Origin: Thermotogota bacterium
GTDB lineage: Bacteria > Bipolaricaulota > Bipolaricaulia > UBA7950 > UBA9294
Length of the DNA: 56,625 nt
Direction of reading: 5' to 3'
NCBI GenBank assembly: GCA_039679545.1
Contig: JBDKUT010000153.1
Location: 1 to 56,625, forward strand
Every line of letters begins with the position of its first letter. Position 1 is the first letter of the stretch. The position numbers were made by a program. Below are positions 1 to 3,000 of this stretch, piece after piece.

Positions 1-3000
1 CGAGTCTCTCCACTGCTGTCGCTCGACAACCAGATCTCCGCGGTCGTCGCGAAAGCAGAGAGAGCGCAGAGCGCCATAACGAGCAACGTTAGGACACTCG
101 CTGCTCCTAGTCTCTTTTTCAACGTCGGACCTCCTTTTCGGGCCGAAGATTTCGCTTGTGTTTTCGTATTGCTTGTCTCGTTCATAGGAAGCATCAACCC
201 CCTGCAGCCTCCTTCCGCCTCACGTAGGGACACTTGGCTCCTAAATTCCGCCAACCACCTCCCTCATCGAAGCCACTCGGTTCATCATCCTGTTTGCGTC
301 ATGGCTTCTGCTCGGCGTCCGATCGACCGAACCGATCCGGCCGCCGATCCAAGGCGCGGGCGTGCCGCGTAGCTCCGCGACCGCCCTACACGTTCTCTCA
401 AAGACCAAAAGGGAGTGCAAACCCACCCCATCTTCCTTGCGAGTCGGAGGATCTTACCACACGGCTGCAACGCCTGTCAAGCCGGATCAGAACAGCTCCA
501 ACCCGCGTTCGACCCACCCCGTGCAACGCGTCGGCCGCGAACCCTCCAAGGATCGGCCAAGAATCACCAGACGCCGTGGAGACACGGGGTCTTCGGTCAT
601 TCATCCGTGGATCACCCCCTTCGGTCGAAAGCGTCCACATACATGAAGACTACGCTAGCGCTCGTCGCCCGGCCCATCGCTGGAGCTTGGGACCTGCCTC
701 CGGCCATCCCGTCCGACCGAAGCGAGACACCTGTCCGTGACCTCGACTACACAAGATGACCGAGCTTCCTACGCTCCCTCCCCTCACCGCATTTTCACAC
801 ACCCACCGCCCCGCGCCGCGCTTGACACGAGCCCGAGGAAACCGATATCCTGACTGCACCAGCGCGGAGGTGAATCGGACAATGCAAAGAGGGGTGCGGA
901 ATCCGGCCGGGGTGCTCTGGTTGTTCGTGTCATTGTCGGTCCTTGCCGCCGCTCTTCCCGCCGGCGCCGTTCCCGCCCTCGTGCGGACGAACGCGGGCGA
1001 GGTCCTTCAGGGAGGTCTGTCGGGGCTCGCTCCCGTCCTTCGGCTGGCCGATCCTTGTCCGCTCATCGGCCCTGCGGCGCAGTACGACATTCCGTTGTCG
1101 TCGATCCTGCAGATCTTCGTGGACTTCCCGCGGATTGTAATCGAGACCGAGGATCGCGTGTATATCGGCCCGTACTCGACGTTCTCCGGAATTGATCAGG
1201 AACTTCGCCTGGACGAACGCGGCGTGGGAACCAGGATCTTCACGACGACCTTGAGCGAAATCGCCCTGAACGGCCAGCCCTTCCGCCCGCTGCCGCGCGA
1301 GTGGACCGGGCGCGGTTTCCTCGTTCTCGAGAAGGCGCCGCAGGCGGCCAAGGTCGCCACGGCGGCGGCCGCGCCGGCGCAGACGATGGCCTCGAGCGAA
1401 ACAACGACGGAAGACGATCTCATCTGGGGCCAGCTCACCCCCGCAGAGCCGCCCGCCGAGGAAGCAGCCGGCCTGCCGTGGTGGGTCGGTGTCGTCGCCG
1501 TCGGACTCATCGTCGCTCTGCTTCTATTCTCGTCGTCCAGCAGCTCCAAGTAGGTCACGTAGTCGCACTCTCTTTTCTCCAGGCTGCCCCTGCGCGGAGA
1601 GGTCTCGCTGTCAATCCCCGCCTGGGTCCGCTTGCACGCCGCAAACCCAGCCCCTAAGATTGGTGCCGAGTGGGAGGGATGACCGAACGGCAAGGAACCG
1701 CTCTCGAAAAGCGGCACGGCGGAAACGCCCTCGGGGTTCGAATCCCCGTCCCTCCGCCAGCGCCCGTAGCTCAGTGGATTAGAGCGTCGGACTGCGGCTC
1801 CGAAGGTCACAGGTTCGAATCCTGTCGGGCGTAAAGCAGGGGTGGGACAAAGCGCCCACCCCTGCTTTACTTCTGACCGGTGAGAAACTGTCGGAGTTCG
1901 CTTGCGCGAACTCTCGAGCCATCCGTAGGATGGCCCAGGTTCCGAATCCTGTCGGGCGTAAAGACGACGCGGGCTCTTCCGGGCCCGCGTTGGCTTTCCT
2001 CCTGGCCGGCGAGAGCTTGTCCGAGTTTCACACCGTGCCGAAGCGAAACTCACGAACCGCCCCCACAGGGGCGGCCCAGGTTACGAGTCCTGTCGGGCGC
2101 ATGGAGTGATGTTCACCCAGCCGTAGTGCTTCGCTCGGGACCGGGGGCAGGTCACTCTGCCGATGACGGGCACTCCCTCCGTCCTACTGCTTGCGGTACT
2201 GCCACAGGTCATATGTCGTCGGGCTGGTGGCAACCAGGAGGTCGCCGATGGCGTAGATAGCGTCGGCAGCTCCGCCTATCTTGAGCCAGCGTAGCGGATA
2301 GCCCGTGTACTGGAACACGGCACTCCCGTCGATTGCCAACCCGTAGAGGTGGTCATCATCCCCGACGGCGAACATCCGCCCCGGACCTCCAATCAGCACC
2401 CAAGAGAACGGCGTGCCATTGTACTCATGCAGATTCCCAACGTCGGGGTCTCTAGCGTACAGGCTCGTCCCCGCCGCGTAGATCGCTGCTGCGGGTCCGC
2501 CAATCTGAGTCCACTGATCCGGCGCACCGTCGTACTTGTAGACGCCGCTGCCGTCTGCTGCCAGGCGGTACACCCGTCCGTCGCTACCAAAGGCGAACTG
2601 CTTTGCCGCAACGCTGATTCGAGTCCACGACGTGCCGTTGTAGGAGTAGAGGGCGCCAGTTTGAGGATTCGTAGCGTAGAGACCTCGGCCCGTTCGATCG
2701 ACGGCGCCATAGATCTCGGCTGCTGCTCCTCCCACCTTGGTCCACCCTCCCGCTGACTCTATGTACCGAAGGACCGTTGCCCCGTCCGGGGTGAGGCCGA
2801 ACAGAGATCCCATCCCGCCCACGGCGAACCGCTTCCCAGGCCCGCCGACGCGGTGCCAGGAAGTCATCCCTGTTCCAGCGAAGGCGTAGATGTCTCCCGT
2901 CGAGCGTTCCGTCGCATAGAGTTGTTCGTAGGACTCAATCGTGCTGTATCCCACGATCACGTCCCCGACGGGTCCCCAGATCTGCGCCCAGTAGCCCTTG

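What a model noticed while it worked through the whole genome (the two positions that open the first line are those of the whole stretch)
1673..1833. Archaeal-style arginine decoding: tRNA-Arg(GCG), no tRNA-Arg(ACG), no TadA
The CGN arginine box is served by tRNA-Arg(GCG) (C153:1760-1833, beside tRNA-Ser(CGA)) and tRNA-Arg(UCG) (C133:15113-15188); there is no tRNA-Arg(ACG) gene and no tadA gene for the A34-to-inosine deaminase. I read it as a bacterium, and by the searches below a phylum, that decodes CGU/CGC with a G34 tRNA as Archaea do, instead of the inosine tRNA used by nearly all Bacteria and Eukarya. New: inosine-free, TadA-free translation in free-living bacteria; TadA loss was so far documented for reduced Mollicutes.
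Evidence so far: rna.tsv: tRNA-Arg anticodons found are gcg, tcg, tct; none acg. TadA model NF008113: 0 of 25 phylum genomes >=93% complete over cut-off; best hits ~36-53 bits lie in 370-600-aa ORFs, in this genome on RibD (C21:29448-29849 = g00380); the gene list shows dCMP_cyt_deam_1 only on RibD g00380 and cytidine deaminase g00281. BLAST of the tRNA-Arg(GCG) gene over 31 high-quality phylum genomes (own included) and ARAGORN on the best locus of 30 of them: 31 tRNA-Arg genes read, 13 gcg (families f1,f3,f8,f10,f11, mostly next to tRNA-Ser(cga) as here), 18 ccg, 0 acg. PMC3711424 (title and abstract, call 192): 'in most bacteria' tRNA-Arg(ICG) reads CGU/CGC/CGA; TadA-less cases described are Mollicutes; P [...]
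(Added by a program. Inside this text positions count along the whole contig: contig position 1 is position 1 of the stretch shown here. "Call 12" and the like, gene names such as g00115 and contig names such as C1 are that model's own, and its searches are not shown. The text may have been shortened before it was handed on; [...] marks where a part breaks off. The agent that wrote the report below was given it as the finding of a first reader that could run no searches.)

Follow-up and report, generated by a model that had tools for sequence, protein, structure and literature searches.

The report
Inosine-free arginine decoding in Bipolaricaulota
This bacterium carries an arginine tRNA gene whose anticodon starts with G instead of the usual A, and no gene for the tRNA-editing enzyme TadA was found in it or its phylum, so it likely reads arginine codons without inosine, an arrangement already known from several other bacterial groups.

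Summary
Window 1760-1833 is an intact tRNA-Arg(GCG) directly behind tRNA-Ser(CGA). The genome is most likely Bipolaricaulota.

Across all 184 phylum genomes:
- A GCG arm pattern matches 131.
- No host-type ACG tRNA was found. The two ACG exceptions lie on a phage-like tRNA array and at a prophage attachment site.
- TadA passes its cut-off in 0 of 184, against 47 of 51 control genomes.
- Two single-contig relatives carry Arg GCG+UCG+CCG and no A34 tRNA.

The novelty claim fails. PMC8007984 states that all sequenced Thermotogae and Spirochaetes have GCG instead of ACG. PMC6063277 reports repeated TadA losses with this tRNA swap. I also found GCG in Spirochaetota and Chloroflexota samples. This scan noted the same trait before in other genomes.

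The gene lies in a bacterial Ser-Ser-Arg cluster and is a close paralogue of Arg(CCG), so it probably converged on the archaeal state. New member of a known kind; low interest.

The parts
1673..1759 (+). tRNA-Ser(CGA), long variable arm, CCA end encoded, directly abutting the Arg gene
   Evidence: ARAGORN; Rfam 45.7 bits; sequence
1760..1833 (+). tRNA-Arg(GCG): G34 anticodon at 1794-1796, G37 at 1797, A20 at 1778, discriminator A at 1833, no encoded CCA
   Evidence: ARAGORN; Rfam 72.5 bits, E 4.9e-15; positions read; the role of A20/C35/G36 as arginine identity elements is recalled knowledge
1821..1880 (+). Inverted repeat overlapping the tRNA 3' end (26-nt arms, 85% complementary); possible terminator or processing hairpin, function untested
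   Evidence: the consensus terminator scan found nothing
1932..1958 (+). First degenerate copy of the tRNA-Arg T-arm and 3' end, followed by a hairpin (arms 1948-1974 and 1983-2009); likely an integration-site remnant or tRNA-linked repeat
2073..2099 (+). Second degenerate copy of the tRNA-Arg 3' end

Best explanation
The window encodes an intact tRNA-Arg with anticodon GCG, and because no ACG tRNA and no TadA gene were found in this genome or as host genes in its phylum, these bacteria likely read the CGN arginine codons without inosine: GCG for CGC/CGU, UCG for CGA/CGG and CCG for CGG. Shown here: gene content and gene order. Inferred from wobble rules: the codon assignments. Inferred from gene order, sequence likeness and PMC6063277: the state probably arose at or before the root of Bipolaricaulota from the usual bacterial Ser(TGA)-Ser(GCT)-Arg(ACG)...tadA-Ser(CGA)-Ser(GGA) cluster. 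The Arg gene likely duplicated, the copies took GCG and CCG anticodons, and tadA was lost once it had no substrate. The two copies have probably been kept alike since. This is the same solution as in Thermotogae, most spirochaetes, epsilon-proteobacteria and some Mollicutes.
For: GCG arm pattern in 131 of 184 genomes, 58 of 71 high-quality, all 11 families. ARAGORN confirms Arg(gcg) in 28 of the 30 loci fetched, all family f3, 27 of them behind Ser(cga), and in further loci of f1, f6, f8, f9, f10, f11. ACG 3'-half pattern: 17 of 184, of which ARAGORN of 17 an Arg(acg); control 41 of 51. ACG 5'-half pattern: 0 of 184; control 5 of 5 genomes picked as ACG carriers. TadA NF008113 over cut-off: 0 of 184, best 105.8 bits; control 47 of 51. 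All tRNA loci of single-contig G005 (46 tRNAs) and G006 (45; Asn not recovered): Arg gcg, tcg, ccg, tct, cct and no A34 anticodon. CCG pattern 64 of 74 and UCG pattern 65 of 74 genomes at 90% completeness or more. Gene order: Ser(tga)-Ser(gct)-Arg(ccg)-Ser(cga)-Arg(gcg) in G085, Ser(cga)-Arg(gcg)-Ser(gga) in G095; control loci have Ser-Ser-Arg(acg)-Arg(cct)-tadA-Ser(cga). A spirochaete-phylum genome has Ser-Ser-Arg(acg) beside a TadA-like gene, while others have Arg(gcg) in that place. GCG is closer to the same genome's CCG (0.82-0.96) than to GCG of other families in 20 of 21 genomes. PMC6063277 places TadA and the ACG tRNA in the bacterial ancestor.
Against: No tRNA sequencing or modification data; decoding is inferred. 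53 of 184 genomes lack the GCG pattern, among them all 5 genus-mates of G000. Those 5 also gave no match to Ser(CGA), and in G164/G165 Ser(CGA) is cut at a contig end, which points to assembly gaps but does not prove them. Whole tRNA sets were read for only G000, G005, G006 and the incomplete G129. Some pattern matches are chance (2 of 30 GCG loci checked had no tRNA), so 131 is an upper figure. Real TadA-like genes can score 134-148 bits, below the cut-off. The G129 deaminase (128.8 bits on my TadA profile, long branch among TadA in a quick tree) is not fully resolved. The tRNA tree has few columns and places one control ACG gene inside the f1 GCG group, so it does not fix the order of events. 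15 of the 21 paralogue comparisons come from one family. No dead tadA was found beside the clusters.
Confidence: 0.9

Rival explanations
1. The G34 state is ancestral: Bipolaricaulota, with Thermotogae, never had TadA and keep a pre-inosine decoding set like that of Archaea.
For: The trait is phylum-wide with no reversal seen in 184 genomes. No tadA remnant was found near the clusters. All sequenced Thermotogae share it (PMC8007984). The closest RibD records include ones titled Thermotogae. It is also common in the Chloroflexota sample, 47 of 61.
Against: PMC6063277 reconstructs TadA and the ACG tRNA at the bacterial root, with repeated losses. Within the spirochaete phylum both states occur in the same cluster position, so the switch happens inside phyla. 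The GCG gene is a close paralogue of bacterial Arg(CCG). No archaeal tRNA was compared here.
Confidence: 0.12
2. The missing ACG tRNA and TadA are artefacts of incomplete assemblies and a biased model; the GCG gene is an extra isoacceptor.
For: G000 lacks Arg(CCG), Arg(CCU) and Gln(UUG) genes, so its tRNA set is incomplete. Two phylum bins hold ACG sequences. Five stand-alone deaminases hit the TadA model at 62-106 bits.
Against: Single-contig G005 and G006 have near-complete one-copy sets with no A34. The same searches find ACG in 41 of 51 and TadA in 47 of 51 control genomes. The G104 ACG gene is in a 31-tRNA array with tmRNA, a CTA-anticodon tRNA, HNH and DNA ligase genes, and G104 also has the GCG pattern. 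The G165 match is only a 3' half beside a phage integrase. None of the five deaminases has the two TadA motifs scored: the C-terminal F-F-x-x-R motif is in 19 of 19 controls and the D-x-K-x-G motif in 14 of 19.
Confidence: 0.03
3. The GCG gene here is a mis-assembled or mutated copy of Arg(CCG), or a mobile-element tRNA, and not the working decoder of CGC/CGU.
For: It is 91-93% identical to CCG genes of close relatives, G000 has no CCG gene, and integration-like remnants follow it.
Against: It is 95% identical to the GCG gene of G118, which has a separate CCG gene. It sits behind Ser(CGA) as in most relatives. CGC+CGU are about 48% of arginine codons in a rough gene set (22,499 of 46,465), and no other tRNA found in G000 could read them by standard wobble.
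Confidence: 0.03

Closest known systems
G34 tRNA-Arg(GCG) in Thermotogae and Spirochaetes (Ehrlich et al. is my recalled authorship; PMC8007984, passages read)
   Same: GCG replaces ACG across a whole bacterial phylum, free-living members included; ACG presence correlates with tadA.
   Different: A different phylum, not named in the passages seen. My sample shows the spirochaete phylum is mixed: GCG pattern in 35 of 61, TadA-like genes at 134 bits or more in 8 of 61. Bipolaricaulota show no such mix.
Repeated loss of the inosine (TadA) modification with gain of non-target tRNAs (PMC6063277; passages and part 2 of 6 of the main section read; figures and supplements not seen)
   Same: Loss of TadA goes with loss of the ACG tRNA and presence of alternative Arg tRNAs, in five sister-clade comparisons; Spirochaetes are named among the losses.
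   Different: Based on 1093 sequenced bacteria; Bipolaricaulota do not appear in the passages read. The supplements, which I did not see, could list one.
TadA-free CGN decoding in Mycoplasma pneumoniae-group Mollicutes (PMC3711424; passages read)
   Same: G34 plus U34 tRNA-Arg pair, no tadA, GCG thought to arise from ACG by point mutation.
   Different: Mollicutes are reduced, AT-rich and lack CCG. Bipolaricaulota keep CCG and, in G005 and G006, a 45-46 tRNA set at about 65% GC.
Archaeal CGN decoding (no A34 anticodons; PMC8007984)
   Same: No ANN anticodons; a G/U/C triplet per four-codon box, as in G005 and G006.
   Different: The gene here lies in a bacterial Ser-Arg cluster and the genome has bacterial TrmD. 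No archaeal tRNA sequence was compared, so an archaeal origin was not tested directly.

Membership tests
TadA-free G34/U34(/C34) arginine decoding in bacteria | Intact tRNA-Arg gene with anticodon GCG | tested here: met
   relatives
TadA-free G34/U34(/C34) arginine decoding in bacteria | No host tRNA-Arg(ACG) | tested here: met
   controls 33, 71; two mobile-element exceptions
TadA-free G34/U34(/C34) arginine decoding in bacteria | tRNA-Arg(UCG) present to read CGA | tested here: met
   C133:15113-15188; pattern in 65 of 74 genomes
TadA-free G34/U34(/C34) arginine decoding in bacteria | No tadA gene | tested here: met
   G000. Phylum: 0 of 184 over cut-off against 47 of 51. The G129 deaminase is unresolved but lacks both motifs
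TadA-free G34/U34(/C34) arginine decoding in bacteria | Mature tRNA carries G34 and no inosine in vivo | not tested
   needs tRNA sequencing or mass spectrometry; no sequencing-run search was made
Archaea-derived tRNA-Arg(GCG) | Sequence and gene context group with archaeal tRNAs | tested here: inconclusive
   Context is the bacterial Ser-Arg cluster and the nearest sequence is bacterial Arg(CCG); no archaeal sequences were included
TadA (for the five stand-alone phylum deaminases) | NF008113 score of 150 or more and the TadA motifs after the zinc site | tested here: not met
   62-106 bits; 0 of 5 have either motif; atlas names for the G129 protein are nucleoside or guanine deaminase

The most novel reading that the evidence does not exclude
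Bipolaricaulota, together with Thermotogae and perhaps Chloroflexota, never had inosine at the wobble position: their G/U/C arginine set is the pre-TadA state of Bacteria, shared with Archaea, and TadA spread later. The phylum-wide Arg(GCG)/Arg(CCG) paralogue pair would then record how the CGN box was first filled.
Probability: 0.12. Interest if true: 0.55.

Novelty: new member of a known kind. Interest (0 to 1): 0.2.

Why it matters
It adds one whole phylum, GC-rich and not strongly genome-reduced, to the list of bacteria that likely translate without inosine. That matters for mapping when TadA was gained or lost, and it predicts no TadA-type A-to-I mRNA editing in these cells. It does not change the genetic code or the known wobble rules, and a tRNA specialist would recognise the Thermotoga pattern at once. 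The one detail I did not meet in the papers read is the duplicated Ser-Arg unit, with GCG and CCG genes that stay more alike within a genome than between families. That is a modest point of tRNA gene evolution.

Tried and rejected
1. Relaxed ARAGORN (-ps90) on G000 gave a long list of noise calls, three of them acg; rejected because neither ACG pattern nor BLAST supports them.
2. A hidden ACG gene behind Ser(GCT) on C91: the 74 bases to the contig end hold no tRNA, and in relatives that place holds Arg(CCG).
3. A dead or degenerate tadA next to the tRNA clusters: a TadA profile over the loci around the Arg genes and window 1-6000 hit only five control (ACG) loci. Most loci reach only 1.5 kb to each side.
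4. The 17 ACG pattern hits: 1 Arg(acg) in a phage-like array, 1 attachment-site half, 1 tmRNA, 1 Val(tac), 13 with no ARAGORN gene.
5. Trees of the Arg tRNAs (74 columns) and of the deaminases (quick tree only, long branches) do not resolve order of events or the G129 protein.
6. Codon usage as support: CGA is 15.7% of CGN, higher than most A-ending codons in four-codon boxes but below GGA; the gene caller is crude, so I give it little weight.
7. No sigma-70 promoter or terminator match at 1500-2250.
8. Thermotogota genomes could not be reached by handle, so that comparison rests on the literature.
9. PMC13433404, PMC13602947 and PMC12255301 (passages) added nothing on GCG distribution. One paper asked for by DOI was not held.
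10. Searches for the phylum in print: 'Bipolaricaulota + tRNA + anticodon' gave 3 listings that look unrelated by title and abstract start; 'Acetothermia + tRNA + inosine' gave 0.

Full report
Observation. The window holds two tRNA genes, Ser(CGA) at 1673-1759 and Arg(GCG) at 1760-1833, with no base between them. The Arg gene scores 72.5 bits on Rfam RF00005 with a complete cloverleaf. The sequence shows G34-C35-G36 at 1794-1796, G37, A20 and an A discriminator; that A20, C35 and G36 are arginine identity elements is recalled knowledge. CCA is not encoded, and the genome has a PolyA_pol-family nucleotidyltransferase and TrmD. These would supply the CCA end and m1G37 (inference). Genome-wide ARAGORN gives 52 genes with Arg gcg, tcg and tct, and no acg, ccg or cct. 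The only zinc deaminases of the TadA superfamily in G000 are RibD and cytidine deaminase. A profile from 29 control TadA proteins finds only RibD (39.8 bits; self-scores 230-260) in a six-frame search.

Organism. The closest RibD record is titled Candidatus Bipolaricaulota (89% identity); the next two are titled uncultured Thermotogae. I take the phylum to be Bipolaricaulota. The tool holds 184 genomes of it in 11 families. Names of the control phyla below also come from record titles, not from the genome tool.

Phylum-wide tRNA content. An anticodon-to-T-loop pattern for GCG matches 131 of 184 genomes, 58 of 71 high-quality, in all families. ARAGORN confirms Arg(gcg) in 28 of the 30 loci fetched (all f3), 27 with Ser(cga) upstream, and in loci of six more families. 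The figure 131 includes a few chance matches. The same pattern with ACG matches 17 of 184: one Arg(acg), one 3' half, one tmRNA, one Val, and 13 without a tRNA. The Arg(acg) lies on G104:C123, a 16-kb contig with 31 tRNAs, a tmRNA, a CTA-anticodon tRNA, and HNH and DNA ligase genes. I read it as phage DNA; G104 also has the GCG pattern. The half gene is at the end of G165:C95 beside a phage integrase. An independent 5'-half ACG pattern matches 0 of 184. It does not see the divergent G104 gene, and it finds 5 of 5 chosen ACG carriers. The 3' pattern finds 41 of 51 genomes of a Bacillota-type phylum. CCG and UCG patterns match 64 and 65 of 74 genomes of at least 90% completeness. For the single-contig genomes G005 and G006 I read all Rfam tRNA loci: 46 and 45 tRNAs (Asn not recovered in G006), Arg gcg/tcg/ccg/tct/cct, no A34 anticodon. 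Against this, 53 genomes lack the GCG pattern, including all five genus-mates. These five also gave no match to Ser(CGA), and in G164 and G165 Ser(CGA) is cut at a contig end, which suggests assembly gaps.

TadA. NF008113 passes its 150-bit cut-off in 0 of 184 genomes; most hits are 36-58 bits in RibD-sized frames. It passes in 47 of 51 control genomes, so the model is not limited to Proteobacteria. Divergent TadA-like genes in the spirochaete phylum score 134-154, so the cut-off alone is not proof. Five stand-alone phylum deaminases score 62-106 bits. None has the C-terminal F-F-x-x-R motif seen in 19 of 19 controls or the D-x-K-x-G motif seen in 14 of 19 (motifs chosen by me from the alignment and from recall). 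The best PDB matches of the G093 protein are TadA variants, with guanine deaminases about 20 bits lower, so sequence search alone does not exclude it. G093 has Arg(gcg) and no ACG match. The G129 protein stays unresolved: 128.8 bits on my profile and a long branch among TadA in a quick tree, nucleoside or guanine deaminase look-alikes in the atlas, no close counterpart in five other phylum genomes, in a genome 69% complete with 19 tRNAs.

Mechanism. Gene content is shown; decoding is inferred from standard wobble rules. G34 reads CGC and CGU, about 48% of arginine codons in a rough 1655-gene set. U34 reads CGA and CGG, and C34 reads CGG. No A34 substrate is left for TadA. [quoted passage not shown]

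History. Control loci show Ser(TGA)-Ser(GCT)-Arg(ACG)-Arg(CCT)-tadA-Ser(CGA)-Ser(GGA). In the spirochaete phylum the same place holds Arg(ACG) with a TadA-like gene in G206 and Arg(GCG) in others. In Bipolaricaulota Arg(CCG) follows Ser(GCT) and Arg(GCG) follows Ser(CGA); G085 and G086 have both in one cluster, and G095 has Ser(CGA)-Arg(GCG)-Ser(GGA). The GCG gene is 0.82-0.96 identical to the same genome's CCG gene, more than to GCG genes of other families in 20 of 21 genomes, 15 of them from f3. Mean identity to control ACG genes is 0.72 and to the phylum's own UCG genes 0.71. I infer duplication of the cluster's Arg gene, anticodon change, tadA loss and later homogenisation. The tRNA tree is too weak to order these steps, and no tadA remnant was found.

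Comparison with what is known. [quoted passage not shown] PMC3711424 (passages) describes the G34+U34 strategy in Mollicutes and names Borrelia, Campylobacter, Helicobacter, Treponema and Thermotoga; the sentence speaks of four-codon boxes in general. PMC6063277 (passages and one part of the main text; figures and supplements not seen) puts TadA at the bacterial root and finds ACG loss with gain of alternative tRNAs in five comparisons. My own samples agree: GCG pattern in 35 of 61 genomes of the spirochaete phylum (11 of 12 loci confirmed) and 47 of 61 of the Chloroflexi phylum (8 of 11 new loci confirmed). In the spirochaete sample 7 of the 8 genomes with TadA-like genes have no GCG match, and the eighth has an ACG tRNA. 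Eight earlier notes of this scan report the same trait in other genomes; none covers this locus or look-alikes. Two paper searches found no report for this phylum; the library lacks most subscription journals.

Verdict. The feature is real and phylum-wide. It is a new lineage for a known strategy, not a new kind of decoding. Interest 0.2.

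Noticed in passing
window 1932-1958 and 2073-2099; G000 C133:15321-15643: Degenerate copies of the tRNA 3' end follow Arg(GCG) twice, the first with a hairpin behind it, and follow Arg(UCG) three times at about 140-160 bp spacing. 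They could be integration remnants or a tRNA-linked repeat family.
   Followed up: partly
window 1759/1760: Zero-base spacer: the encoded CCA of Ser(CGA) abuts the first base of Arg(GCG). The same holds in several f3 genomes and for Ser(GCT)-Arg(CCG) in genus-mates. One RNase P cut would make both mature ends (inference).
   Followed up: partly
L244 = G104:C123:1-16207: Phage-like array of 31 tRNAs plus tmRNA on one strand, with a CTA-anticodon (amber-reading) tRNA and Arg(ACG), HNH and ATP-dependent ligase genes, 54% GC. Whether it infects this host or is mis-binned is open.
   Followed up: partly
L245 = G165:C95:1-1535: Tyrosine integrase next to the 3' half of a tRNA-Arg with ACG anticodon: an attachment site that does not match the phylum's GCG gene, suggesting an element from an ACG-type host or a mis-binned contig.
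   Followed up: partly
L051:1360-1812 (-) = G129:C1 near 904,800: Stand-alone deaminase with an intact zinc site and TadA-like N-terminal two thirds but a different C-terminus; substrate unresolved.
   Followed up: partly
window 2184-3791 (-): Trypsin-like protease fused to a tectonin-like repeat region right behind the tRNA pair, probably secreted.
   Followed up: no
G000 C60:10020-10321 and C138:407-4331: Two sets of Thr(ggt), Tyr(gta) and Thr(tgt) genes and five CAT-anticodon tRNAs in G000, against single copies and three CAT genes in G005/G006; C138 may be a contaminant contig.
   Followed up: no
L277:846-1487 (G079): A pair of small genes that look like a HicA/HicB-type toxin-antitoxin module (label from recall, not searched) sits between Arg(CCG) and Ser(CGA), where control genomes have tadA; other f8 genomes have other inserts in the cluster.
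   Followed up: no
L190:1542-2112 and L192:1542-1998 (spirochaete phylum): A conserved gene of about 120 codons, not TadA, fills the gap between Arg(GCG) and Ser(CGA) in two genomes.
   Followed up: no
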